Sequence record: MZ398247.1
Origin: Enterobacteria phage IME177
Direction: 5' to 3' (one strand)
Length of the DNA stretch: 39,224 nucleotides
A program made the position numbers and the translations under genes. The notes below the pieces were generated by a model. The model worked only from the letters and a program-made list of their open reading frames with translations, was not told where the DNA came from and made no database searches. Below, piece by piece: positions 1,293 to 39,224 of this stretch. Each line of letters opens with the position of its first letter. Position 1 is the stretch's first letter.

Positions 1293-3824
1293 ATGTCCAC
1301 GATTACACAATTCCCTACAGGAAACACTCAGTACAGGATTGAGTTCGACTACCTAGCCAGAACGTTTGTTGTTGTTACGCTGGTGAATAGCTCTAACCCT
1401 ACCCTGAACCGTGTACTGGAAGTTGGTCGAGATTACCGATTCCTTAATCCAACGATGGTTGAGATGTTGGTTGACCAATCAGGTTTCGACATCGTTCGCA
1501 TTCACCGTCAGACTGGAACTGACTTAGTGGTAGACTTCAGGAATGGCTCAGTGTTGACAGCTAGTGACCTGACCAATTCAGAGCTTCAGGCTATCCATAT
1601 TGCAGAAGAAGGTCGAGACCAAACGGTTGACTTAGCGAAGGAATATGCCGATGCTGCTGGTAGCTCTGCTGGCAACGCTAAGGATAGCGAGGACGAAGCA
1701 CGCCGAATCGCTGCGAGTATCAGGGAAGCTGGTCTAATTGGCTATATTACCCGTCGCTCCTTCGAGAAAGGCTACAACGTTACAACATGGAGCGAGGTCC
1801 TGCTATGGGAAGAGGATGGTGATTATTACCGCTGGGATGGTACGCTTCCAAAGAGTGTTCCTGCTGGTTCAACTCCTGAAACTTCCGGTGGGATTGGATT
1901 AGGTGCGTGGGTTAGTGTTGGTGATGCTGCTTTAAGAAGTCAGATTTCAAACCCGGAAGGGGCAATACTCTACCCGGAATTGCAGATGGCAAGATGGCGT
2001 GATGAGGGTGATGTTCGAGGCTGGGGTGCTAAAGGGGATGGTGTAACAGATAGTACGGAGAATATAGCCGCTTCACTAAATTCTCAAAAAGCTGTCGTAG
2101 CATCAGAAGGTGTATTCTCTAGTTCTGGTATTAATAGTGATTACTGTAACTTAGACGGTAGAGGCAGTGGGGTGCTAAGTCACCGTTCCAGTACAGGTAA
2201 CTACTTAGTATTTAACAATCCACGTACAGGTCGCTTAAGTAATATTACGGTAGAAAGTAATAAGGCGACGGATACCACTCAGGGACAGCAGGTATCTCTT
2301 GCTGGTGGCAGTGATGTTACGGTAAGTGACGTTAACTTCTCAAACGTTAAAGGTACTGGTTTCAGTTTAATCGCATACCCTAATGATGCGCCACCTGATG
2401 GGCTTATGATTAAAGGCATTCGAGGTAGCTATTCCGGCTATGCCACTAATAAGGCGGCTGGATGCGTACTTGCTGACTCCTCAGTTAACTCCCTCATAGA
2501 TAACGTCATTGCTAAGAACTACCCTCAGTTCGGAGCTGTAGAGCTGAAAGGTACAGCCAGTTACAACATAGTTAGTAATGTTATAGGGACAGATTGCCAG
2601 CATGTAACCTACAACGGTACTGAAGGGTCAATAGCTCCTTCTAATAACCTTATCAAGGGGGTAGTTGCTAATAATCCTAAATATGCAGCGGTTGTTGCAG
2701 GCAAAGGTAGTACCAACTTAATCTCCGATGTGCTTGTAGATTTCTCAACCTCTGATGCTAGGCAGGCTCATGGTGTTACAGTAGAAGGTCCTGATAACGT
2801 CATAAATAATGTGCTTATGTCAGGGTGTGATGGTACTAACTCTTTAGGGCAAGCTCAAACTGCTACAATTGCACGCTTTATAGATACAGCTAATAACAAC
2901 TATGCGTCTGTATTTCCTAGCTACAGTGCTACAGGTGTTATTACTTTCGAATCAGGTTCTACCCGTAACTTCGTAGAGGTAAAGCATCCGGGAAGGAGAA
3001 ACGACCTTCTCAGTGCTACTGGTACTATTAGCGGTGCAGATACTATTGACGGCACTAATAATAGCAACGTAGTGCACGCCCCTGCATTAGGGCAGTACAT
3101 AGGCAGTATGTCCGGTAGGTTCGAATGGCGGATTAAGTCCATGTCACTTCCATCAGGGGTTCTTACCTCTGCGGATAAGTACAGGATGCTTGCCGATGGG
3201 GCTGTGTCATTAGCTGTAGGCGGAGGTACTTCTTCTCAAGTACGCCTGTTCACTTCTGACGGCACTTATAGGAATATATCACTTACTAGCGGTAACGTGC
3301 GTCTTCCTACCAGTAGCACAGGTTATTTGCAGTTAGGTTCTAATGCAATGACCCCAGATAGTACTAATACATACGCATTAGGTTCCGCAAGTCGAGCATG
3401 GTCTGGCGGTTTTACTCAATCAGCATTCACTGTTGTCTCAGATGCTAGGGATAAAACAGAGCCTCTTAATATCTCAGATGCTTTACTGGATGCTTGGTCT
3501 GAAGTTGACTTTGTGCAGTTTCAGTACTTGGACCGAATTGAGGAGAAGGGTGCAGACTCAGCTAGATGGCACTTCGGCATCATCGCTCAGCGAGCTAAGG
3601 AGGCCTTCGAACGTCACGGTATAGATGCACACCGCTATGGCTTCCTGTGCTTCGACAGTTGGGATGATGTATACGAGGAAGATGCCAATGGCTCTCGTAA
3701 ACTGATTACACCAGCAGGTTCCCGCTACGGTATTCGTTACGAGGAAGTACTGATATTAGAGGCTGCGTTGATGCGGCGTACTATTAAGCGTATGCAGGAA
3801 GCATTAGCTGTTATGTCTAAGTGA
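1293..3824 (+). CDS. gp17: tail fibre / tailspike protein: T7 gp17-like N-terminal anchor + pectate-lyase-3-like beta-helix domain + C-terminal intramolecular chaperone (peptidase S74-like) domain
   Basis: 843-aa ORF with RBS aaaggagg. N-terminus (EFDYLARTFVVVTL...HIAEEGRD) resembles T7 gp17 N-terminal domain; WGAKGDGVTDSTENIAASL is the hallmark start of pectate-lyase-3 beta-helix domains; C-terminus carries SDARDK...RWHFGIIAQRAKEAF, the pattern of self-cleaving chaperone domains of phage tailspikes. Confidence 0.88.
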   Translation: MSTITQFPTGNTQYRIEFDYLARTFVVVTLVNSSNPTLNRVLEVGRDYRFLNPTMVEMLVDQSGFDIVRIHRQTGTDLVVDFRNGSVLTASDLTNSELQAIHIAEEGRDQTVDLAKEYADAAGSSAGNAKDSEDEARRIAASIREAGLIGYITRRSFEKGYNVTTWSEVLLWEEDGDYYRWDGTLPKSVPAGSTPETSGGIGLGAWVSVGDAALRSQISNPEGAILYPELQMARWRDEGDVRGWGAKGDGVTDSTENIAASLNSQKAVVASEGVFSSSGINSDYCNLDGRGSGVLSHRSSTGNYLVFNNPRTGRLSNITVESNKATDTTQGQQVSLAGGSDVTVSDVNFSNVKGTGFSLIAYPNDAPPDGLMIKGIRGSYSGYATNKAAGCVLADSSVNSLIDNVIAKNYPQFGAVELKGTASYNIVSNVIGTDCQHVTYNGTEGSIAPSNNLIKGVVANNPKYAAVVAGKGSTNLISDVLVDFSTSDARQAHGVTVEGPDNVINNVLMSGCDGTNSLGQAQTATIARFIDTANNNYASVFPSYSATGVITFESGSTRNFVEVKHPGRRNDLLSATGTISGADTIDGTNNSNVVHAPALGQYIGSMSGRFEWRIKSMSLPSGVLTSADKYRMLADGAVSLAVGGGTSSQVRLFTSDGTYRNISLTSGNVRLPTSSTGYLQLGSNAMTPDSTNTYALGSASRAWSGGFTQSAFTVVSDARDKTEPLNISDALLDAWSEVDFVQFQYLDRIEEKGADSARWHFGIIAQRAKEAFERHGIDAHRYGFLCFDSWDDVYEEDANGSRKLITPAGSRYGIRYEEVLILEAALMRRTIKRMQEALAVMSK

Positions 3825-8173: not shown

Positions 8174-8677
8174 ATGGAACGTAACGCTAACGCATACTAT
8201 GAGCTGCTGGCTGCAACCGTTGAGGCATTTATCGAGCGTATTCAGTACGACCACCTGACTAAAGATGATGACTACAGCGATGCGCTGCATGAGGTCGTAG
8301 ACAGTCAGGTCCCGCTCTATTACCACGAGATTTTCACGGTGATGGCTGCTGATGGTATAGACCACGAGTTCGAAGACTCTGGGCTGATGCCTGAAACCAA
8401 GGACGTAACGCGTATCCTACAAGCTCGCATCTATGAGGCACTTTATAACGACGTGTCTAATAGCTTGGATGTAGTCTGGTTTGAGGATGAAGAGGCAGAC
8501 GAAGAGGATGAATATTGGGTAGTTGACGCTAAAACAGGCGCAATAATTGTGCAAGCTGTAGCTCTTGAGGTCGCTACTGCATGTGCCAAGGTCAACTATG
8601 TGATAGGTCGCCACCTGAAGGTGGAAGACATCAATGATAACGTAGTGTTCGACCCTGCGGCTGAGGACTGCGAGTGA
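8174..8677 (+). CDS. gp0.3: Ocr-like anti-restriction DNA-mimic protein (gp0.3-like) with an extra ~50-aa C-terminal extension
   Basis: 167 aa, first gene after the early promoters; [44 protein letters not shown] matches the core of T7 Ocr as recalled; highly acidic; T7 Ocr is 117 aa. Confidence 0.8.
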
Positions 8678-13125: not shown

Positions 13126-13374
13126 ATGAGCAGACGTTGGGTATTTGATGCGTCCACCAGCCAGTGGTCATCGTTAGGCCGGACACACCGCGAGCTGCGT
13201 GAGGCAGGACTTGAGGTCAGAATGGATGTCCTGCCGTGCTCCGGAAAGACTCTGGTCCTAATCATTGAAGCAGACGGGAAGCCTCTGGTATCCCGCGAGT
13301 TCACCGAACACGAAATCTTTAGCTGTGAGCAATGGTGCTTGCAACAACTGAATGCTTATAGGAGCTGGAAATAA
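13126..13374 (+). CDS. gp1.2-like protein (82 aa)
   Basis: Position between gp1.1 and ligase; size and C-terminal ...SWK similar to T7 gp1.2 (...DWK); weak similarity only. Confidence 0.5.
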   Translation: MSRRWVFDASTSQWSSLGRTHRELREAGLEVRMDVLPCSGKTLVLIIEADGKPLVSREFTEHEIFSCEQWCLQQLNAYRSWK

Positions 13375-14449
13375 TGACTACGACTATTAAAACTAACCCG
13401 CACCGCGCTGTAGATTACTCTGAGTCTGGCGTTAAGAAGGCTTTGGAAGCTGCCGGGTCGCTGGAAGCTGAAGTGAAGTATGACGGTGTGCGTATAAACA
13501 TCCCGGTCTTCCCTACTGGTGAGACCCAATGGTTGAGCCGTGAGTCTAAACCTCTCCCAGCCCTTGAGTGGCTGTCAGTCCTTACCAACATCGACAACAT
13601 CGTCAGGGACCAGCAAAAAGCTAGCGACTGGCGGTGGTTCCTGAAGCAGGCTGGCTACGAAGGCACTGGTCTGATGATTGACGGTGAGGTCATGGTAAAA
13701 GGAGTGGACTTCAATACGTCTTCAGGTCTAGTCCGTACCATGTGGTCAGACACTAAGAACTACGCTTGGAATGGCAACCCAGATGCTGACATCGACACCA
13801 AGAAGAAGCATAAGGTCCCTTTCCATCTGGCAACCGACTACATACGCGTGGTTGTCTACGGTATCGTGGACCTTAACGTCATCCTTGACCCGAAATCCGA
13901 GGTCCTATTCATAGCGTCACACGCCTGAAGGCCGAAGCTATCGTCCCTCTCCTCCAGAAATACTTCCCGGAAATCGACTGGGTTCTGTCTGAGTCACACA
14001 CGGTCTATGACCTTGAGTCGCTCAACTCCCTGTACGAACAGAAGCGTCTGGAAGGACACGAGGGTCTGGTAGTCAAGGACCCGCTTGGTAAATATAAGCG
14101 TGGCAAGAAGTCTGGCATGTGGAAAATGAAGCCTGAGGAGACCATCGACGGGACCGTGTGTGGCCTCGTGTGGGGGACTCCGGGTAAGGCCAACGAAGGT
14201 AAGGTGATTGGCTTTGAGGTTCTGCTTGAGGATGGCATGGTGGTTAACGCCTGTGGTCTGACTGAAGAACAGAAGGATGAGTTTACGGAAGCCTGTAACA
14301 CTGATACATATATTCTCGGTGGAATCAATCCATACGAAGGCTGGCAGTGTGAAGTCCTCTTCATGGAGCGCTTCCCTGATGGTTCCCTTCGTCACCCTAG
14401 CTTCAAGTGCTGGCGCGGGACGGAAGACAATCCAACCGTTAAGAGTTAA
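13374..14449 (+). pseudogene. gp1.3: ATP-dependent DNA ligase (gp1.3-like) with reading frame interrupted: N-terminal ORF 13374-13928 and C-terminal part in the -1 frame (open 13889-14449)
   Basis: N-part has ligase motif I EVKYDGVR and is colinear with T7 ligase; C-part (...PLLQKYFPEIDW...EGHEGLVVKDP...GSLRHPSFKCWRGTEDNP) continues the alignment in another frame. Adding one base near 13924-13926 (cc run) restores a ~370-aa ORF. Confidence 0.8.
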
Positions 14450-15795: not shown

Positions 15796-15950
15796 CTGAG
15801 GTTGAGAAGAAGTACATCGTGGAGCTTGAGGGACGCGTTCAGTCCTTCGAGGTTCCGTTGTACGCAAAGTCTCTTGAAGAGGCTACCCTGAAGTCCCAAG
15901 AGTATGAGGACGCTGGTTTTGTGGTCGGTCGGATTCGTCCTGAGACCTAA
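15792..15950 (+). CDS. gp2: host RNA polymerase inhibitor (gp2-like)
   Basis: 52-aa ORF below track cutoff; [14 protein letters not shown]...[10 protein letters not shown] resembles T7 Gp2 (SFEVPIYAETLDEA...GFEVTRVRP as recalled); position before SSB. Confidence 0.65.
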
Positions 15951-15968
15951 ACTATCACTGTAGGACAG
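15946..15968 (+). promoter_or_regulatory. variant phage promoter (phi2.5-like), TCACTGTAGG core, predicted +1 at 15963
   Basis: cctaaactatcactgtaggacag; A to G change at -3 relative to the window consensus. Confidence 0.6.
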
Positions 15969-16007
15969 ACGTCCAGTTCGTAACTTTAAAATAGGAGATT
16001 TACACCG

Positions 16008-20326: not shown

Positions 20327-22498
20327 ATGTTTGACCTTAAGAGTATCTGGGGTTCTGATATCGAGACCAACGGTCTCCTTGATACAGTCTCCCAGTTTCA
20401 CTGTGGGGTCCTGATTAACGCCGAGTCGAATGAGACCCTTAAGTATGGGGTAACTCCGATGGTCGGTATCGTCGGTGGCTTCAAAGAGTATGTACAGAAG
20501 GTGGAAGAGATTGCCGCATCACCTGATGGTATGCTGGTATTCCACAACGGTATCAACTATGACGTCCCGGCTATTGACAAGCTGAAGCGTCTGTACTTTG
20601 GGAAACGCTTTAACTTCCCGAAACACAAGATGATTGATACCTTGGTGCTGGGCCGCTTGATGTATCCAAACATTAAGTTCTCAGACATGGGAGCAGTGAA
20701 AGCTGGTCGTCTGCCACCTAAGATGATGGGACGCCAGTCTCTTGAGGCTTGGGGCTATCGTCTCGGTGAGATGAAAGGTGAGTACAAACACGATTACGTT
20801 GCCAAGTGCAAGGCTGAAGGTGTCGAATATAAGGATGGGGACGAATGGTTGTTCCCGTCTCAGGAGATGCTAGACTATAACGTTCAAGACGTTGTGGTCA
20901 CACTGGCGTTGTTCAAGAAGTTCCTGACCGACAAGTATTACTTCCAGTCTGAACAGTTCGCTTTCGACCAGATTTATGCGTTGCGTCTGGAACATGATGC
21001 TGCGTGGACCTGTGCGAAGATGGAACGTAACGGCTATCCGATGAACACCGAGATGGTCGAAGGCTTATATCGTGAACTCACCGTCAAACGTGCAGAGTTG
21101 TTGGACAAGCTGCGTTCGACTTTCGGTAGCTGGTATGCACCAAAGGGAGGCAAGGAGTTCTTCAAGCACCCACGGACAGGCAAGGACCTTCCGAAGTATC
21201 CGCGAGTCGTGTATCCTAAGGTCGGGTCAGTATTCAAGAAGCCGAAGAACAAAGCTCAACGCTTAGGTCTGGAACCTTGCGAGTTCGACTCACGAGACAC
21301 GATGGAAGGAGCACCGTTCACGCCAATCACTTACGTTGAGTTTAATCCGGGAAGCGGAGACCACTTAGCGAAAGTCTTGATGGAGCGTGGTTGGGGGCCT
21401 GTGGACTTCACTGACACTGGGAAACCTGTAGTCGATGACGAGACGTTAGAACACGTTAAGCTACCAGACGCAGAGGCTCAGGCTTGCGTAGAGCTGGTCC
21501 GTGAGTATCTGGTAGTCCAGAAGCGCATCGGTCAGGCGGCTGAAGGTAAGAACGCATGGTTGAAACTTGTAGGTCCAGACGGACGTATGCACGGTTCAAT
21601 CAACCCATGCGGTGCAGTAACAGGACGTGCGACTCATAGTTCACCAAACATGGCTCAGGTCCCTGCTAACGGTGCTCCGTATGGTGAGATTTGCCGTGGT
21701 GCTTTCGGTGCAGCTTGGAACAAGACGGATGGTAAGCCAGACCCTTGGATTCAAGTGGGTGTGGATGCTTCAGGTCTTGAGCTTCGTTGTCTGGGGAACC
21801 GAGCAGCTCCGTTTGATGGTGGTGCCTATGCGAAGACTGTGGTCGAAGGTGACATCCACTGGGCCAACGCAGTAAACGCTGGTTTAGCACCTAACGTCCC
21901 ACGCGATAAATCGAACCACGACCATGATGCTTTCCGTAACAACGCTAAGACGTTCATCTATGCGTTCCTGTATGGTGCAGGGGCCGCTAAGATTGGACTG
22001 ATAGTCGGCGGTGGTAAGAAGGAAGGTTCAGCTCTCATGAAGAAATTCATTGAGGGTACACCAGCCATCAAAGACCTCAGGGAAGCTGTGAGTAATACGT
22101 TAATCTCAGACTCTAAGTGGGTGGACGGAGAGAACATCGTCAAGTGGAAACGCCGTTGGTTGCGCGGACTTGACGGGCGCCGTATCCACATCCGGTCGCC
22201 GCACTCAGCACTGAACGCCTTACTTCAAGGCGATGGTGCGGTAGTCTGTAAAACGTGGTTCACTTGGCTTGAGAGGAACCTAGAAGCTAAAGGCTACGTG
22301 CATGGCTGGGATGGTGACTTTGCGATTATGGCTTTTGTCCATGATGAAGTTCAAGTTGCCGCAAGGACTATGGAAATAGCTGAGGACATCGTTAAGGTGG
22401 CGCAATCCACAATGCGAGAGGTTGGAGAGTTCTACCAGTTCAAGTGTGTGCTTGACACCGAGGGAAAGATAGGGGCTACGTGGCGCGAATGTCACTAA
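20327..22498 (+). CDS. gp5: DNA polymerase (gp5-like, family A)
   Basis: 723 aa; exonuclease motif SDIETNGL, polymerase motifs VGVDASGLELRCL, KTFIYAFLYGAG, FVHDEVQV; colinear with T7 gp5 as recalled. Confidence 0.97.
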   Translation: MFDLKSIWGSDIETNGLLDTVSQFHCGVLINAESNETLKYGVTPMVGIVGGFKEYVQKVEEIAASPDGMLVFHNGINYDVPAIDKLKRLYFGKRFNFPKHKMIDTLVLGRLMYPNIKFSDMGAVKAGRLPPKMMGRQSLEAWGYRLGEMKGEYKHDYVAKCKAEGVEYKDGDEWLFPSQEMLDYNVQDVVVTLALFKKFLTDKYYFQSEQFAFDQIYALRLEHDAAWTCAKMERNGYPMNTEMVEGLYRELTVKRAELLDKLRSTFGSWYAPKGGKEFFKHPRTGKDLPKYPRVVYPKVGSVFKKPKNKAQRLGLEPCEFDSRDTMEGAPFTPITYVEFNPGSGDHLAKVLMERGWGPVDFTDTGKPVVDDETLEHVKLPDAEAQACVELVREYLVVQKRIGQAAEGKNAWLKLVGPDGRMHGSINPCGAVTGRATHSSPNMAQVPANGAPYGEICRGAFGAAWNKTDGKPDPWIQVGVDASGLELRCLGNRAAPFDGGAYAKTVVEGDIHWANAVNAGLAPNVPRDKSNHDHDAFRNNAKTFIYAFLYGAGAAKIGLIVGGGKKEGSALMKKFIEGTPAIKDLREAVSNTLISDSKWVDGENIVKWKRRWLRGLDGRRIHIRSPHSALNALLQGDGAVVCKTWFTWLERNLEAKGYVHGWDGDFAIMAFVHDEVQVAARTMEIAEDIVKVAQSTMREVGEFYQFKCVLDTEGKIGATWRECH

Positions 22499-22507
22499 GG
22501 AGATAAG

Positions 22508-22834
22508 ATGGGAGGTGTGGCAACCTTGCGCTTCCATAAGATGCCTACTGGATGTATCGTCTGTGTATCACATCGTCGCAATCATGATGGATACTTTCGG
22601 TACACGGTAGGCTCTGCCCGTAAGCCGGGACGCAAGGCGTTTATGTTTCACCGATGGGTGTGGGAACAGAAGCGCGGACCCATACCGGATGGCTATGAGA
22701 TAGACCATTTGTGTTTGAATCGTGGGTGCTGTAACGTAGAACATCTACAATGTATTCCAAAGCGTGATCACGTCATCAAGACGAACCGTGAGCGCAAACT
22801 TATTAAGAAGGAGAAGACTAATGGCTATTACTAA
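22508..22834 (+). CDS. HNH homing endonuclease
   Basis: 108 aa; EIDHLCLNRGCCNVEHLQ is an HNH motif with zinc-binding Cys; directly downstream of the DNA polymerase gene. Confidence 0.8.
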   Translation: MGGVATLRFHKMPTGCIVCVSHRRNHDGYFRYTVGSARKPGRKAFMFHRWVWEQKRGPIPDGYEIDHLCLNRGCCNVEHLQCIPKRDHVIKTNRERKLIKKEKTNGYY

Positions 22835-23105
22835 ACGTATTCGTGTAAGTTTCGACCTGAAGACGGTTGTTAGCTCAACGAAAGAAGAGACCATGTGTCG
22901 CCAACTGGCTGAGATGACTAAAGCCTACGCTGAGGGTGAGAAGCTGGATGGACTTCAGGTGGTTATGGTCAAAGCAGCAATCGAGTCAGGCCCTGAGTCT
23001 GCCCTTGAAATTGCCCTCAAGAAGACCATCAAGGAGGAGCTGGTAGACGCCTTTGGTGATGACCAGTTCGGAGTATCTAACCTGCGATTCGAGTTCAAGC
23101 AATGA
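22821..23105 (+). CDS. gp5.5: gp5.5-like protein (94 aa)
   Basis: ATG at 22821 with RBS aaggag; MAITKRIRVSFDL resembles the T7 gp5.5 N-terminus as recalled; overlaps HNH gene end. Confidence 0.6.
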   Translation: MAITKRIRVSFDLKTVVSSTKEETMCRQLAEMTKAYAEGEKLDGLQVVMVKAAIESGPESALEIALKKTIKEELVDAFGDDQFGVSNLRFEFKQ

Positions 23106-23311
23106 GTGAATACTTACGGGTCCTAGCGGCCCTTAAGTCCTGCCCGAAGACCTTCCAGTCCAACTATGTGCGCAACAACGCTGCACTGGTGGCTGAGGCT
23201 GCGAGTCGTGGACATCTAAGCTGCCTGTCTATGGATGGGCGTAACAACGGTGCGTGGGAGATTACCGCTGCTGGCACCAAGTTCCTGAACCAACACGGAG
23301 GCTGTCTATGA
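23102..23311 (+). CDS. gp5.7: gp5.7-like protein (69 aa)
   Basis: MSEYLRVLAALKSCPKTFQSNYVRNNAALVAEAASRGHLSC closely matches T7 gp5.7 as recalled. Confidence 0.75.
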   Translation: MSEYLRVLAALKSCPKTFQSNYVRNNAALVAEAASRGHLSCLSMDGRNNGAWEITAAGTKFLNQHGGCL

Positions 23312-23757
23312 AGATACCTGAAAGTCTGAAAGAGCTGGTCCTTGACATGGGTGAGTGCGAGAAGGAGCACCGCAAGTACGCTGAGTTCTACGCATCTTGG
23401 TCATACACCTTGACAGAGAAGGACGTTGAGTCATACACCGAGTCTCCCGCTGAGGCTTATGAGTGGCGTCCGTTCATCGGACTGACCATCGTAGCTAGCG
23501 GTATGTGGGATGACAGATACGGCTCAGAGGTAAACGACTGGGACGTGTACCGCCAAGTTGAGAAGGAGACCGAAATGTCTTCCAACTTCTGGAGCCTGAT
23601 GTCCCACCTCAACTCAGATGACAATGACATGGCCCATGAGTTCGCCAACAAATGGCTGAAGCCTGAGGTGACTCTGGAACGTATTGAGGAGCCTAAAGTG
23701 CCATTGATGCCATATGCAGTCGCTATGGCTACAGGAGGTCTGGACGATGGGTGCTGA
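23308..23757 (+). CDS. hypothetical acidic protein (149 aa) at the gp5.9 position
   Basis: ATG 23308 with RBS ggagg; overlaps gp5.7 stop and gp6 start; much larger than T7 gp5.9. Confidence 0.55.
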   Translation: MKIPESLKELVLDMGECEKEHRKYAEFYASWSYTLTEKDVESYTESPAEAYEWRPFIGLTIVASGMWDDRYGSEVNDWDVYRQVEKETEMSSNFWSLMSHLNSDDNDMAHEFANKWLKPEVTLERIEEPKVPLMPYAVAMATGGLDDGC

Positions 23758-24616
23758 GAAGAAGATAGCTCTTGTTCTTGATGGCGATTACCTAGTATTC
23801 TCTTCTATGGCTGCTGCCGAGGACGAGACAGACTGGGGTGATGACATCTGGACCCTTATCTGCGACCATGAGAAGGCTCGCCGTATCCTTGAGAACACCA
23901 TCGCTGAAATCGTTAAGAAGCGCAAGGCGTGGAAAGACGCTAAGATTGTGATGTGCTTTACTGATGATAACAACTGGCGTAAGGACGTTTTGCCTACCTA
24001 TAAGGCTAACCGTAAGGGTTCTCGCAAGCCTGTAGGTTACAAGAAGTTCGTAGCCGAAGTGATGGCTGACCCACGGTTCAACAGCTTCCTGCGTCCCACG
24101 CTTGAGGGTGATGACTGTATGGGTATCATCGGGACCAGACCTCAGATTGTCGGATGTGACCATGCGGTTCTGGTGTCCTGTGATAAGGACTTCAAGACCA
24201 TCCCGAACTGTGAGTTCTTCTGGTTAACCACTGGTGAAATCCTGAGTCATACGACTGCTGAGGCAGACTACTGGCACATGGAGCAGACCATCAAGGGAGA
24301 TACTACAGATGGCTACGGTGGCATTCCTGGAATGGGTGAGGACACCACTCGTGTGTTCCTTGACGAGCCGTACTACTTCGTGCAGGAGAGCCGTGAGCTT
24401 AAGACTGGCAAGAACAAAGGCCAGATTAAGACTGAGTGGAAGAAGTATCCGAAGCGTGAAGACATGACGCTGTGGGACTGCATGGTTACACTGGCTGCTA
24501 AGGCTGGCATGACCGAGGAGGAACTTCTGGTCCAAGCTCAGGTCGCTCGTATTTGTCGAGCATCTGACTATGACCCTAAGTCCAAGGAGGTCATCCTATG
24601 GACACCACCCATGTAA
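23747..24616 (+). CDS. gp6: 5'-3' exonuclease (gp6-like)
   Basis: ATG 23747 after aggagg; ...LVLDGDYLVF..., FTDDNNWRK, PVGY, SCDKDFKTIPNC, TIKGDTTDGY, AKAGMTEEEL colinear with T7 gp6 as recalled. Confidence 0.93.
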   Translation: MGAEKKIALVLDGDYLVFSSMAAAEDETDWGDDIWTLICDHEKARRILENTIAEIVKKRKAWKDAKIVMCFTDDNNWRKDVLPTYKANRKGSRKPVGYKKFVAEVMADPRFNSFLRPTLEGDDCMGIIGTRPQIVGCDHAVLVSCDKDFKTIPNCEFFWLTTGEILSHTTAEADYWHMEQTIKGDTTDGYGGIPGMGEDTTRVFLDEPYYFVQESRELKTGKNKGQIKTEWKKYPKREDMTLWDCMVTLAAKAGMTEEELLVQAQVARICRASDYDPKSKEVILWTPPM

Positions 24617-36504: not shown

Positions 36505-39224
36505 ATGGCGACTCGTGGTATTCGCAATAACAATCCGGGTAACATCCGGGTAAGTAAGGACCAATGGGAAGGAATGACTGGAGATGATGGCGCATTCGTC
36601 ACCTTCGATAGTCCAGAGTCTGGCGTCCGAGCTTTAGGTAAAAACCTGCTGTCCTACGGTCGCCGAGGTTATGACTCCATCGAGAAGATTATCAACCGAT
36701 GGGCACCTCCTAACGAGAACGACACTAAGGCTTATATCGACTCAGTGGTGGCTGCAACTGGTATTCCAGCTACCCAGAGTCTCGACCTATCGGACCCTGA
36801 CACCCTGTCTTCTCTGGCTCAAGCTATCAGCTTCCATGAGACAGGCTCCCGGTACGACCCTGAAGTCTATCAGAAGGGAGTCGCACGAGCGCTCAATGGC
36901 ATTAGCCCAAAGACTCCACCAGTAAGCGCTAACGTATTTGACGCACTCACGGAAGGACTCAAGGCTAAACCTAAAGTAGCTCTTGGTGAGAACCTTCCGA
37001 CCGCTGCTGGTCTAAACATTGAGGGTCAAGCACCTGAAGCTCCCAACGAATCGTTCGGTGAGATGTTCTATAAGTCTACTGGCGAGACCATGCAGGAACG
37101 AGAGGATCGCTCTACGTGGTTCGGTTTCGGTGCTGCTACAGAAGCTGAAGTGAAGAACTCTATGGTAGGCGTGGCTATCCGCGCTGGGCAGACAGAGGAC
37201 TCACTTGATGTCATTGGCGATGTGTTCAACCCGACCCGCTGGAACAACCATAAGTGGACTCGTGAAGAGCTTGACCAGATTCGTAACGCTGGGGTTCTGC
37301 CTCAGTATTACGGAGTCATTACTGGTGGCTCCCCTCAGAACCTGACCGAGCTTATTAACTTGGCGCTTGAGAACCAGAAGTTGGACCAAGAGAAGGCCAA
37401 GGCTGGGACTGGTGCTCAGTTAGCTGCTGGTGTGATTGGCGCTGGTGTAGACCCTCTGACATACGTTCCTATCGCTGGACAGGTTGGTAAAGGCGGTAAG
37501 CTGGTCAACAAGATGTTCACCGTGGCTGCTCAATCTGGAGCACTGGCTGGTGTGTCCGAGATGGCCCGTACCTCAGTGGCTGGTGGTGATGCTCATGTGG
37601 CTGAAGCTATCCTTGGTGGTGCTCTCTTCGGTGGTGGTATGACTGCTATCGCTGATGGGTTAGGCAGAGCCTTAGGTCGCAACACTAATGAGTTTGCTGG
37701 CCCAGCTACACGTCTGGAAGCTCGTGAGACCGCTCGTAACGTTGATGGTCAGGACCTGTCTCGTCTCCCTATTCAGGAAGGTGAGCAGACCTTTAGTCAT
37801 CAAGGCGTTAAGTTCGCTGACGTTCCGAACGAGCCGGGTAGTGTACGACTGGAAGATGGTTCAATCCTGATTGGTGAGAACCCTCTGAACCCTAAGACAC
37901 GTCAAGTCTTTGATGAAGTGATTGAGCCTGAACGTGCCGCTGCTGGTGTGAACCTTGGTGGGCTTACTGAGATTGGCCTGAAGCTGCTTCGGTCAGAGAA
38001 CCCTGAGATTCGTGGAGTCGCTGCTGACTTAGTGCGTTCACCAACTGGTATGCAGTCAGGGGCCTCAGGTAAAATCGGGACCACTGCGTCAGACGTATTT
38101 GAGAGACTTCGTGCTGTGGACCATCGGTTCTACAACGACATCGACGACGCGGTTACTGAGGCGCTCAAGGACCCATACTTCCAGACAGCATTCTGGCGAG
38201 ACTCTGGCGCATTCCGTCAGGACATCTACCAGCGTGTGTCTATGGCTATTGAAGACGGAAGTGGGAACCTGAAGGCTGAACTGACTCCGGGAGAACTGAA
38301 AGTATATGACCTGCTGAAGAACCAGTTTGACGCCAAGCGTGAGATGATGGAGAACCCGGCGATGTTTGGTCGTCCAGACGCTCAGTCTATCTTTCCGGGT
38401 AGCCGCTTCAAGGGAACCTACGTCCCGCATGTGTATAGCAACCAGATGAAGGAGCTGTACATCAAGGAGCTTGGGAGTCCAGAGGCACTACAGGAGGCCA
38501 TCAAGAAGTCATGGTTGACCAGCTATGCGTCTCGACCTGAGGTCAAGAAACGTGTGGACGAGGCACTCTTAGAGGCTGACCCTACGTTGACTCCAGAAGG
38601 ACTTGCGGCTGCGGTCGATAAGTACGCCAACGATAAGGCTTATGGTATCTCTCACACCGAGCAGTTCGAGCGTTCATCCGTAATGGAAGAGAACATCAAT
38701 GGTCTGGTGGGTCTGGAGAACAACAGCTTCCTTGAGGCTCGTAACCTGTTCGATAGCGATATGTCAATCGTCCTACCTAACGGTCAGACCTTCAGTGTCA
38801 ACAACCTGCGTGAGTGGGACATGGACAAGATTGTCCCGGCCTACAACCGTCGAGTTAATGGCGATATTGCTATCATGGCTGGTACAGGCAAGACCACGAA
38901 GGACATGAAGGACTTGGTTGAGACCATGATGAACAAGGCTGGGGATGACGGTAAGTTGAAAGGTGAAGTATCTACCTTACGTGACACCTTGAAGATTCTA
39001 ACTGGTCGTGCTCGACGTGATGGCGCTGATGATGCAGCCTTCGCTACCGTGATGCGCACAATGACAGACCTATCGTTCTTCGCTAAGAATGCCTACATGG
39101 GTGTTCAGAACTTAACGGAGATTGGTGGTATGCTGGCTCGTGGCAACGTTCGTGCAATGCTGCATCAGAACTTAACGGAGATTGGTGGTATGCTGGCTCG
39201 TGGCAACGTTCGTGCAATGCTGCA
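36505..39224 (+). CDS. gp16: internal virion protein D (gp16-like) with N-terminal lytic transglycosylase-like domain; 3' part continues at window positions 1-1228
   Basis: ATG 36505 after taaggag; ...SPTGMQSGASGK..., ...SRFKGTYVPHVY..., ...YGISHTEQFERSS..., ...NGDIAIMAGTGKTTKD... colinear with T7 gp16 as recalled; frame open to window end. Confidence 0.93.
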   Translation, partial: MATRGIRNNNPGNIRVSKDQWEGMTGDDGAFVTFDSPESGVRALGKNLLSYGRRGYDSIEKIINRWAPPNENDTKAYIDSVVAATGIPATQSLDLSDPDTLSSLAQAISFHETGSRYDPEVYQKGVARALNGISPKTPPVSANVFDALTEGLKAKPKVALGENLPTAAGLNIEGQAPEAPNESFGEMFYKSTGETMQEREDRSTWFGFGAATEAEVKNSMVGVAIRAGQTEDSLDVIGDVFNPTRWNNHKWTREELDQIRNAGVLPQYYGVITGGSPQNLTELINLALENQKLDQEKAKAGTGAQLAAGVIGAGVDPLTYVPIAGQVGKGGKLVNKMFTVAAQSGALAGVSEMARTSVAGGDAHVAEAILGGALFGGGMTAIADGLGRALGRNTNEFAGPATRLEARETARNVDGQDLSRLPIQEGEQTFSHQGVKFADVPNEPGSVRLEDGSILIGENPLNPKTRQVFDEVIEPERAAAGVNLGGLTEIGLKLLRSENPEIRGVAADLVRSPTGMQSGASGKIGTTASDVFERLRAVDHRFYNDIDDAVTEALKDPYFQTAFWRDSGAFRQDIYQRVSMAIEDGSGNLKAELTPGELKVYDLLKNQFDAKREMMENPAMFGRPDAQSIFPGSRFKGTYVPHVYSNQMKELYIKELGSPEALQEAIKKSWLTSYASRPEVKKRVDEALLEADPTLTPEGLAAAVDKYANDKAYGISHTEQFERSSVMEENINGLVGLENNSFLEARNLFDSDMSIVLPNGQTFSVNNLREWDMDKIVPAYNRRVNGDIAIMAGTGKTTKDMKDLVETMMNKAGDDGKLKGEVSTLRDTLKILTGRARRDGADDAAFATVMRTMTDLSFFAKNAYMGVQNLTEIGGMLARGNVRAMLHQNLTEIGGMLARGNVRAML
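39105..39224 (+). repeat. perfect 60-bp tandem direct repeat (2 copies, 39105-39164 and 39165-39224), in frame within gp16, ending exactly at the window end
   Basis: Both copies read tcagaacttaacggagattggtggtatgctggctcgtggcaacgttcgtgcaatgctgca; encodes a duplicated 20-aa segment QNLTEIGGMLARGNVRAMLH that T7 gp16 has once. Confidence 0.9.

What the first reader, a model, noticed from the sequence alone, without database searches (positions are those of the whole stretch)
23308..23757. 149-aa acidic protein at the gp5.9 position
T7 gp5.9 is a small (52 aa) RecBCD inhibitor. This locus instead has a 149-aa acidic ORF, translationally coupled to gp5.7 upstream and overlapping the exonuclease start. 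Its size and lack of recognisable similarity suggest a different or expanded host-nuclease inhibitor or another DNA-mimic-type protein.
Basis: inference. Interest (0 to 1): 0.45.

Follow-up and report, generated by a model that had tools for sequence, protein, structure and literature searches.

The report
Two-module acidic protein replacing gp5.9
A real, conserved 149-residue acidic phage gene sits where T7 keeps its RecBCD inhibitor; it pairs a domain with no known structural relative with a short helical module shared with longer gp5.9-family proteins, so it is probably a related host-enzyme inhibitor, though this is untested.

Summary
ORF 23308-23757 encodes 149 aa (pI 4.4, net charge -17). 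Its start overlaps the gp5.7 stop (ATGA) and its end overlaps the exonuclease start by 11 nt. It is under purifying selection (dN/dS 0.13-0.34). The window is a Kayfunavirus (K1F-like) genome.

It has two modules:
- Residues 1-87 form an acidic beta-rich core (C).
- Residues 88-118 form a helix-loop-helix, F..LMSHLNsEdN.MA.EF (A). This module is homologous (hhalign 97%) to the N-terminus of 65-78-aa proteins that match Pfam PF25708, the T7 gp5.9 RecBCD-inhibitor family.

Those longer gp5.9-like proteins occupy the same 5.7|6 slot in other Kayfunavirus and Przondovirus genomes. In Erwinia phage Y2 such a gene is followed by an overlapping module-C gene. One metagenomic contig fuses A and C in the opposite order.

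ORF149 itself fails PF25708 and lacks the rest of the PF25708 region. The best reading is a non-enzymatic inhibitor functionally tied to gp5.9, with RecBCD the leading candidate target. This is inferred, not shown.

The parts
23297..23301 (+). Shine-Dalgarno GGAGG for the 149-aa ORF, lying inside the 3' end of gene 5.7
   Evidence: Read directly; 6 nt upstream of the ATG.
23308..23757 (+). Coding sequence of the 149-aa acidic protein (phrog_4382 family). It is identical to the hypothetical protein QYC97344.1 of Enterobacteria phage IME177.
   Evidence: ORF and charge; phrog_4382, E 1.3e-48; identity to IME177; dN/dS 0.13-0.34.
23308..23568 (+). Module C, residues 1-87: acidic beta-rich core (a1-b1b2-a2a3-b3b4) with motifs EHRKYxxFY and GxWxDxxGxE. 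Across the family G65 is invariant and K23 and G72 are nearly so.
   Evidence: AlphaFold model with pLDDT about 90; family alignment A3. Homologous to Erwinia phage Y2 gp59-type proteins (hhalign 95.7%, E 9e-9). No solved structural relative.
23569..23661 (+). Module A, residues 88-118: helix-loop-helix FWSLMSHLNSDDNDMAHEF. It is shared with the N-terminus of long gp5.9-family (PF25708) proteins and with phrog_6163.
   Evidence: phrog_6163 E 0.0036 at residues 90-115. hhalign 96-97%. It is the only hit of the long gp5.9-like HMM in the six-frame window (E 1.9e-8). It is the most conserved segment among Kayfunavirus orthologues (19 of 31 positions invariant).
23662..23728 (+). Strand b5 (residues 120-125) followed by a variable, Pro-rich tail predicted to be disordered.
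   Evidence: pLDDT below 50 from residue 129; only 1 of 14 positions invariant in residues 127-140. The tail is absent from the 127-aa Przondovirus homologues.
23312..23728 (.). Exchangeable cassette: the segment that differs between Kayfunaviruses whose flanks are 92-97% identical.
   Evidence: blastn of the window against L040: identity ends after gene 5.7 and resumes at 23729. Slot-length classes are shown.
23729..23757 (+). Conserved flank encoding the last ~9 residues (..TGGLDDGC*). It contains the gp6 Shine-Dalgarno (23733-23738) and the gp6 ATG (23747-23749).
   Evidence: The same flank ends the unrelated slot genes of SP7 (..TGGLDDGF) and the long gp5.9-like gene of L040 (..DDDDFE).

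Best explanation
ORF149 is a dispensable accessory protein of the DNA-metabolism (class II) gene block, built from two modules. Module A is a ~30-residue helix-loop-helix that it shares with the 'long' gp5.9-family proteins found in the same slot in sister phages. Module C is an 87-residue acidic beta-rich domain that stands where those proteins carry the rest of the PF25708 region (the GGVDNW motif and an acidic tail).

I propose that it is not an enzyme. It would act as a stoichiometric binder that blocks a host DNA-processing machine, with RecBCD the leading candidate. Module A would supply a docking or oligomerisation element common to the gp5.9 lineage, and the acidic core would supply the blocking surface.

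Shown: the gene is real and under selection; the family is uniformly acidic; it is modular; module A is homologous to PF25708 proteins; the two gene types alternate in one slot; C and A+B occur as adjacent genes or fused.

Inferred: protein binding, the identity of the target, and inhibition.
For: 1. Module A homology.
- hhalign of the ORF149 family (A3) against long gp5.9-like proteins (A8) gives probability 97.3%, E 1.7e-11 over 31 columns. Against a single 65-aa protein it gives 96%.
- A module-A profile retrieves 183 proteins. Nearly all of the 120 listed are 65-78 aa and carry PF25708.
- PF25708 scores 45-56 bits on them against a cut-off of 24.5.

2. Same slot.
- Long gp5.9-like genes lie between 5.7 and the exonuclease in a Kayfunavirus-like contig (L040) and a Przondovirus contig (L041).
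- ORF149 homologues lie there in the window, in Klebsiella phage P509 and in two other T7-like lineages.
- The Przondovirus pair keeps a 33-nt, 79% identical DNA match exactly at module A.

3. Adjacency and fusion.
- In Erwinia phage Y2 and Pantoea phage SSEM1, an A+B gene (gp58) is followed by an overlapping module-C gene (gp59). gp59-type proteins match the ORF149 core at hhalign 95.7% and gp59 was a BFVD fold hit.
- Contig L039 fuses the modules in the order A then C.

4. No other gp5.9-like gene in the window, and none annotated in the close relative vB_EcoP_F.

5. Inhibitor-like properties.
- All family members are acidic (pI 4.2-4.8, net -10 to -19) despite only 25-30% identity.
- No catalytic-type residues are conserved: only G65 is invariant, with K23 and G72 at 90% or more.
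- The family is phage-only and single-domain, with 19 clusters among 1.84 billion representatives.
- The slot is presence/absence polymorphic, as expected for accessory genes.
- Module A is the most constrained segment.
Against: - ORF149 and its C-terminal half do not match PF25708. It lacks the GGVDNW motif and acidic-tail region.
- In T7 gp5.9 the RecB-arm contacts are made by the coiled coil (PMC9836394). ORF149 has no predicted coiled coil.
- The tie between the long family and T7 gp5.9 rests on the Pfam model alone (T7 scores 27.8 bits). My own hhalign of the long family against T7 gp5.9 gives 0.9%.
- I found no paper testing a long member.
- At whole-database calibration the one-way match of module A is marginal for the window protein (30.3 bits, E 0.1).
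- K1F, PE3-1, CR44b and others have an empty slot, so the function is dispensable.
- In Y2, module C is co-encoded with an A+B gene, which suggests C does something B does not.
- Homologues in Ounavirinae sit between nrdD and nrdG, and on one contig between DHFR and thymidylate synthase.
Confidence: 0.4

Rival explanations
1. Module C has its own target, distinct from RecBCD. It could be a second host factor, or a defence system that senses gp5.9-type inhibitors or RecBCD loss. Module A would then be only a shared docking or oligomerisation handle. On this reading ORF149 is a counter-defence protein that accompanies RecBCD inhibition rather than substituting for it.
For: - In Erwinia phage Y2 and Pantoea phage SSEM1, module C is a separate gene co-transcribed with a complete A+B gene, so the two are not redundant there.
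- Many module-C proteins lack module A altogether (the short subfamily P0036-P0044).
- Module A is also joined to a third kind of C-terminal region (L034-L036).
- T7 gp5.9 is known to be sensed by retron Ec48 and by type III Sir2-HerA (PMC13434337), so countermeasures would be useful to a phage.
Against: - The window has no A+B or T7-type gp5.9 gene for such a partner to accompany.
- No PADLOC or anti-defence family match beyond one 14.5-bit hit that other family members do not share.
- No target can be named.
Confidence: 0.25
2. It is an auxiliary factor of phage nucleotide or DNA-precursor metabolism, for example a regulator or adaptor for enzymes that supply dNTPs, rather than an inhibitor of a host nuclease.
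For: Family members sit inside nucleotide-metabolism operons and are translationally coupled to their neighbours:
- nrdD|X|nrdG in Mooglevirus and Suspvirus;
- DHFR|X|thymidylate synthase on L019;
- 3.5 kb from an RNR small subunit on L018;
- next to dUTPase and ligase in Y2;
- next to the gp6 exonuclease, which recycles host DNA in T7 (annotation note).
Against: - The partner genes differ in every lineage, and T7-like phages have no RNR, DHFR or thymidylate synthase.
- The gene is presence/absence polymorphic among near-identical Kayfunaviruses, which is unlike a metabolic subunit.
- Junctions between conserved metabolism genes are common landing sites for mobile small ORFs. A homing endonuclease sits next to X in SUSP1.
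- The link to gp5.9-family proteins is not explained.
Confidence: 0.12
3. It is a small enzyme that uses the conserved basic cluster EHRKY on strand b1, for example a nucleotide- or nucleic-acid-modifying activity.
For: - K23 is nearly invariant, and His and Arg are frequent beside it in an otherwise acidic protein.
Against: - H21 and R22 are replaced in many members (EFRK, EYIK, GEFFKH and others), so only a lysine and glycines are conserved.
- There is no Pfam, NCBIfam or PDB sequence match.
Confidence: 0.05
4. It is a selfish or decaying filler ORF with no function for the phage.
For: - The slot is empty in many relatives.
- A chimaera exists (SP7), and a fragment remains in phage LS2.
Against: - dN/dS is 0.13-0.34.
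- The protein has a confident, well-packed predicted fold.
- It is conserved at 25-45% identity across T7-like, Ounavirinae and T4-like backbones.
Confidence: 0.03

Closest known systems
T7 gp5.9 (RecBCD inhibitor; PDB complex described in eLife 2022, PMC9836394)
   Same: Same genomic slot between genes 5.7 and 6, with the same coupling to both neighbours. Small and very acidic (pI 4.0 for gp5.9 against 4.4 here). A non-essential accessory gene.
   Different: No sequence similarity. gp5.9 is a 52-aa parallel coiled-coil dimer, whereas ORF149 is a 149-aa protein with a predicted alpha/beta fold. RecBCD binding is shown for gp5.9 only.
Long gp5.9-family proteins (Pfam PF25708; 65-78 aa), e.g. 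Klebsiella phage P510 (75 aa) and Kayfunavirus CLB_P1 / contig L040 (78 aa)
   Same: Same slot in the same two genera. They share the helix-loop-helix F.xLMSHLNxEENxMAxEF (hhalign 97.3%). In Kayfunavirus they share the last residues, which are encoded by the gp6 leader.
   Different: They continue into CLExGGVDNWxxY plus an acidic tail and score 45-56 bits on PF25708. ORF149 has neither of these, carries the module at residues 88-118 instead of the N-terminus, and adds an 87-residue beta-rich core. None of these long proteins has been tested experimentally, as far as I could find.
Erwinia phage Y2 gp58/gp59 pair (Chaseviridae), and the fused A+C protein of contig L039
   Same: They use the same two modules. 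gp58 is module A plus a PF25708 region. gp59 is a module-C homologue (hhalign 95.7%). The two genes overlap by 8 nt.
   Different: In Y2 the modules are on separate polypeptides and a PF25708 region is present. In L039 the order is A then C. In ORF149 the order is C then A and the rest of the PF25708 region (B) is absent.
phrog_4382 (PHROGs v4, unknown function)
   Same: Full-length match, E 1.3e-48. This is the family the protein belongs to.
   Different: The family carries no functional annotation. Every record and cluster-member name seen is 'hypothetical', 'uncharacterized' or 'unknown function', apart from a few evidently spurious labels such as 'baseplate hub assembly protein' and 'tail tube protein'.
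DNA-mimic inhibitors in general (lambda Gam, Ocr, Ugi)
   Same: Small size, low pI and about 21% Asp+Glu. Phage-encoded and non-enzymatic in appearance.

Membership tests
Pfam PF25708 Phage_T7_Gp5_9 (gp5.9 RecBCD inhibitor family) | Scores above the family's gathering cut-off (24.5 bits) | tested here: not met
   No PF25708 hit for the whole protein at E up to 1, nor for its C-terminal half at E up to 10. Controls: T7 gp5.9 scores 27.8 bits and long members score 44-56 bits.
Pfam PF25708 Phage_T7_Gp5_9 (gp5.9 RecBCD inhibitor family) | N-terminal helix-loop-helix F.xLMSHLNxEENxMAxEF of the long members | tested here: met
   hhalign of A8 against A3 gives 97.3%, E 1.7e-11. The long-family HMM hits residues 90-115 and nothing else in the six-frame window. 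In ORF149 the module is internal, not N-terminal.
Pfam PF25708 Phage_T7_Gp5_9 (gp5.9 RecBCD inhibitor family) | C-terminal CLExGGVDNWxxY motif and acidic tail (long members), or a dimeric parallel coiled coil (T7 gp5.9 structure) | tested here: not met
   The motif is absent. The AlphaFold model shows an alpha/beta fold with a disordered tail and no long helix. The structural definition is taken from PMC9836394.
Pfam PF25708 Phage_T7_Gp5_9 (gp5.9 RecBCD inhibitor family) | Located between genes 5.7 and 6 of a T7-like phage; small and strongly acidic | tested here: met
   Position shown. pI is 4.40. Size is 2-3 times larger than family members.
Pfam PF25708 Phage_T7_Gp5_9 (gp5.9 RecBCD inhibitor family) | Binds RecBCD and blocks its DNA binding | not testable with these tools
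   Needs biochemistry or a complex prediction. Only single-chain prediction was available.
phrog_4382 (phage protein family of unknown function) | Full-length match to the family profile | tested here: met
   E 1.3e-48, residues 1-130 against profile positions 6-129 of 130.
DNA-mimic proteins (functional class) | Small, pI about 3-5, rich in Asp/Glu | tested here: met
   17.3 kDa, pI 4.40, 31 of 149 residues D+E. The family-wide pI is 4.2-4.8. These criteria have low specificity.
DNA-mimic proteins (functional class) | Surface carboxylates arranged like a DNA backbone, competing with DNA for a DNA-binding protein | not testable with these tools
Known anti-phage defence or anti-defence catalogues (PADLOC models) | Significant match to a catalogued family | tested here: not met
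   Only PDC-M02B at 14.5 bits (E 0.0035), and four other family members do not share it.

The most novel reading that the evidence does not exclude
Enterobacterial phages may build inhibitors of host DNA-end processing combinatorially from three portable modules: A (the SHLN helix-loop-helix), B (the rest of the gp5.9/PF25708 region, with the GGVDNW motif and acidic tail) and C (an acidic beta-rich domain with no solved structural relative). On this reading ORF149 (C+A) is a structurally new class of RecBCD inhibitor, or an inhibitor of a defence system that guards RecBCD. Module A would be a previously unrecognised docking motif for that host target.
Probability: 0.2. Interest if true: 0.75.

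Novelty: new variant of a known kind. Interest (0 to 1): 0.5.

Why it matters
RecBCD is a central bacterial barrier to linear phage DNA. Its inhibitors (Gam, gp5.9, Abc2) are also what several defence systems sense, including retron Ec48 and type III Sir2-HerA.

If ORF149 is a gp5.9-related inhibitor built on a different domain, three things follow:
- It would show how phages vary such inhibitors, possibly to escape guard systems.
- It would assign a function to a protein found in at least 170 sequenced phages of Escherichia, Klebsiella, Salmonella, Shigella and relatives, many of which are therapy candidates.
- It would identify the ~30-residue SHLN module, present in well over a hundred small phage proteins, as a functional unit worth structural study.

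Even if the RecBCD reading is wrong, the A/B/C module relationships give a concrete and cheap set of constructs to test.

Tried and rejected
- **Direct homology.** Pfam, NCBIfam, PADLOC and PDB sequence searches with single proteins and with profiles found nothing.
- **Similarity to T7 gp5.9.** None by blastp, tblastn or hhalign.
- **ST38-type slot protein.** I suspected by eye that this 110-aa acidic protein was a remote homologue. hhalign gives 0.2%, so I rejected it.
- **Acidic C-terminus ending in Phe.** I considered that ..GGLDD[GD]F might mimic the polymerase-binding tails of T7 gp2.5 and gp4 (recalled from memory). I rejected this as a functional inference. Those codons are the gp6 ribosome-binding site and start, they are shared with unrelated slot genes, and the last residue varies between Cys and Phe.
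- **EF-hand-like reading of the HLNSEDN loop.** The spacing does not fit the canonical loop. This was by inspection only.
- **'VNDWDVY' (residues 75-81) against the 'GVDNWxxY' motif of module B.** The long-family HMM gives a secondary alignment there. The Trp is not conserved in the wider ORF149 family, so I treat it as chance.
- **Chi sites as an indicator of RecBCD dependence.** There are 9 in the window against 1.4 expected. T7, CLB_P1 and vB_EcoP_F have 7 each, so the count does not discriminate.
- **Adjacency of an A+B gene to module-C-only genes.** Not found on L018. No module-C gene was found next to the A+B gene of the phiEa104-like locus L037.
- **Literature.** Searches for the family, its accessions, gp5.9 homologues and Kayfunavirus anti-defence found no study of it.

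Full report
**What is in the sequence**

The window is a circularly permuted genome of a K1F-like podovirus (Autographiviridae, Studiervirinae, Kayfunavirus). The region 23000-24000 is 92-97% identical to many Kayfunavirus records, and the window is collinear with vB_EcoP_F.

The ORF runs from ATG 23308 to TGA 23755-23757 and encodes 149 aa. Its ATG overlaps the gp5.7 stop as ATGA, and a GGAGG lies 6 nt upstream. The exonuclease (gp6) ATG is at 23747, with its AGGAGG at 23733-23738 inside the ORF, so the two genes overlap by 11 nt.

The protein weighs 17.3 kDa, has pI 4.40 and net charge -17, and contains six Trp. It is the fourth most acidic product in the window. It is identical to a hypothetical protein of Enterobacteria phage IME177.

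Among six Kayfunaviruses, dN/dS over the first 126 codons is 0.13-0.34.

**What it is not**

T7 has the 52-aa gp5.9 in this position. ORF149 shows no similarity to it (blastp and tblastn; hhalign 0.3%), and nothing else in the window does either.

Pfam, NCBIfam, PADLOC and PDB sequence searches give nothing significant. PHROGs places the protein in phrog_4382, of unknown function, at E 1.3e-48.

An exhaustive HMMER scan of 1.84 billion cluster representatives found only 19 clusters, all 90-150 aa. The sources with names are all phages. tblastn finds the family in 173 phage records:
- Kayfunavirus, 80-97% identity;
- Przondovirus (Klebsiella phages), about 43%;
- other T7-like phages;
- Ounavirinae myoviruses, about 30%.

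**Structure**

With a diverse alignment, AlphaFold2 gives pLDDT of about 90 for residues 1-125. The topology is a1-b1b2-a2a3-b3b4-a4a5-b5, followed by a disordered tail from residue 129.

**The slot is an exchangeable cassette**

Kayfunaviruses with 92-97% identical flanks differ in what lies between 5.7 and 6:

| Slot content | Example |
|---|---|
| Nothing | K1F, PE3-1, CR44b |
| 72-aa basic protein (phrog_2251) | EcoDS1 |
| 110-aa acidic protein (phrog_18166) | ST38 |
| Chimaera of the 72-aa type plus the ORF149 tail | SP7 |
| 78-aa PF25708 protein | L040, CLB_P1, ZH4 |
| ORF149 | about 55 records |

DNA identity between the window and L040 stops at the end of 5.7 and resumes at 23729. The last ~9 residues (..TGGLDDGC) are therefore encoded by the conserved gp6 leader. 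This explains their conservation and their presence at the end of unrelated slot genes.

**The key finding: two modules, one shared with the gp5.9 family**

A pattern scan of IMG/VR with the most conserved stretch of the family (HLN[SA][ED][DE]Nx[ML]) recovered family members. It also recovered small proteins that carry the same ~30-residue helix-loop-helix at their N-terminus. I call this element, F..L[ML]SHLN[SA]E[ED]N.MA.EF, module A.

Two of those proteins (L037 and L033; the near-identical L038 protein is Erwinia phage Y2 gp58) match Pfam PF25708 'Phage T7 gp5.9 RecBCD inhibitor' at 53-56 bits, against a cut-off of 24.5. They also match PHROGs annotated 'host RecBCD nuclease inhibitor'.

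Further evidence that the module is shared:
- ORF149 itself had shown a weak hit to phrog_6163 at exactly residues 90-115.
- Profile-profile comparison of the ORF149 family (A3) with 18 long gp5.9-like proteins (A8) gives probability 97.3%, E 1.7e-11 over 31 columns.
- A profile of module A retrieves 183 proteins from 5.8 billion. Nearly all of the 120 listed are 65-78 aa and pre-annotated with PF25708.
- In the six-frame translation of the window, the long-family HMM hits only ORF149 residues 90-115 (E 1.9e-8 at window scale).
- At whole-database calibration the one-way score is modest (30.3 bits, E 0.1 for the window protein; best family members reach E 1e-3). The claim therefore rests on the profile-profile result, the invariant motif and the context.
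- Within Kayfunavirus orthologues, module A is the most conserved segment: 19 of 31 positions are invariant, against 30 of 87 in the core.

**Context that ties the modules together**

Long gp5.9-like proteins consist of module A followed by a region I call B (CLExGGVDNWxxY plus an acidic tail). Pfam PF25708 spans from the middle of module A through B. These proteins occupy the same 5.7|6 slot in a Kayfunavirus-like contig and in a Przondovirus. Each genus therefore has genomes with A+B and genomes with the ORF149 type. I call the ORF149 core (residues 1-87) module C, so ORF149 is C+A. The Przondovirus pair retains a 33-nt, 79% identical DNA match exactly at module A.

In Erwinia phage Y2 (Chaseviridae) and Pantoea phage SSEM1, the A+B gene (gp58) is followed by an overlapping gene, gp59. 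gp59 is a module-C homologue: hhalign of gp59-type proteins against the ORF149 family gives 95.7%, E 9e-9 over 83 columns. gp59 was also a BFVD fold hit.

One metagenomic contig (L039) encodes A fused in front of C. C also exists without A, in a short subfamily, and A exists with other partner regions. A, B and C are thus portable modules that recur as neighbouring genes or as fusions.

**Other contexts**

Family members lie inside DNA or nucleotide-metabolism operons and are usually translationally coupled to a neighbouring gene:
- nrdD|X|nrdG in Mooglevirus and Suspvirus;
- DHFR|X|thymidylate synthase on L019;
- after a DUF5405 gene and near a non-specific endonuclease in T4-like contigs;
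- next to dUTPase and ligase in Y2.

**Interpretation**

The protein shows no conserved catalytic-type residues: only G65 is invariant, with K23 and G72 at 90% or more. It is uniformly acidic across members that share only 25-30% identity. It is phage-restricted, single-domain and dispensable.

Together with the modular homology, the slot alternation, and the adjacency and fusion with PF25708 proteins, the most likely reading is a stoichiometric inhibitor functionally linked to gp5.9. RecBCD is the leading candidate target (confidence 0.4 for the general mechanism, lower for RecBCD specifically).

Caveats:
- ORF149 fails PF25708 and lacks region B, and it has no predicted coiled coil like the one that makes the RecB-arm contacts in T7 gp5.9 (PMC9836394).
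- The link between the long family and T7 gp5.9 depends on the Pfam model. My hhalign gives 0.9%.
- I found no experimental work on any long member or on this family.
- In Y2, C accompanies A+B, so C may have a separate target. That is the main rival explanation.

**Verdict**

Its interpretation is partly supported, and for a better reason than position and charge. The statement that there is no recognisable similarity needs correcting.

I rate this a new variant of a known kind: a relative of gp5.9-type accessory inhibitors built on a domain with no solved structural counterpart. Interest is moderate, because the function is still inferred but is now directly and cheaply testable.

Noticed in passing
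window 8174-8677 (+): A 167-aa protein with net charge -30, the most acidic in the window by net charge. It matches Pfam 'DNA mimic ocr' (E 9e-29) and the PHROG 'ocr-like anti-restriction'. It is about 50 residues longer than T7 Ocr (117 aa; T7 gene 0.3 at 925-1278), and the Pfam match covers only residues 8-94.
   Followed up: partly
window 22508-22834 (+): An HNH homing-type endonuclease (HNH_3, E 1.7e-18) lies between the DNA polymerase gene and gene 5.5. The stretch 22251-23085 has no match in the otherwise collinear phage vB_EcoP_F, so this is a mobile insertion together with a different 5.5 allele.
   Followed up: partly
window 13374-14449 (+): The DNA ligase gene is split between two reading frames at about 13901 (ORFs 13374-13928 and 14117-14449). 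The N-terminal part is 73% identical to the vB_EcoP_F ligase and the C-terminal part is 100% identical. This is either a frameshift (pseudogene or sequencing error) at a recombination junction.
   Followed up: partly
window 39105-39224: The last 60 nt (39165-39224) exactly repeat the preceding 60 nt (39105-39164). The window start continues from 39164 in the reference order. This looks like an assembly or circularisation overlap, not biology.
   Followed up: partly
whole window; also T7 (L044), CLB_P1 (L045), vB_EcoP_F (L021): The E. coli Chi octamer GCTGGTGG occurs 9 times in the window, against 1.4 expected from shuffles (0 of 100 shuffles reach 9). It occurs 7 times in each of T7, CLB_P1 and vB_EcoP_F, against about 1.3-1.5 expected. 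The over-representation is general to these T7-like genomes and independent of the slot occupant. All 7 sites in T7 are on one strand.
   Followed up: partly
L011 507-839 (Salmonella phage ST38) and about 10 similar records: Another unrelated acidic protein (110 aa, pI 4.3, net -15, phrog_18166) occupies the same 5.7|6 slot. It gives a weak hit to phrog_2294, which is annotated 'ribonucleotide reductase'. Three of the four unrelated kinds of protein seen in this slot are strongly acidic.
   Followed up: partly
L012 507-785 (Escherichia phage SP7): This slot gene is a chimaera. The first 68 residues are the EcoDS1-type 72-aa basic protein (96% identical over 71 residues). The last 23 residues match ORF149 residues 126-148 at 78%. 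This shows recombination inside the cassette.
   Followed up: yes
L042 2501-2728: In another T7-like lineage the long gp5.9-like (PF25708) gene is not next to the exonuclease. It lies immediately after the gp2-type RNA polymerase inhibitor gene, so the gene moves between accessory positions.
   Followed up: no
MN518894.2 (Escherichia virus LS2) 15875-15970: Only residues 65-96 of ORF149 are recognisable (84% identity) in an unannotated stretch of the slot. This is apparently a decayed remnant of the gene.
   Followed up: no
L034-L036 about 2992-3291 (IMG/VR contigs of 56-98 kb): Module A is also fused to a third, unrelated C-terminal region (..LYLVAGGTDGY.., phrog_6163 full length). Stand-alone ORFs of about 40-42 aa carrying module A also exist (P0158, P0173). 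The partner range of the module is wider than B and C.
   Followed up: no
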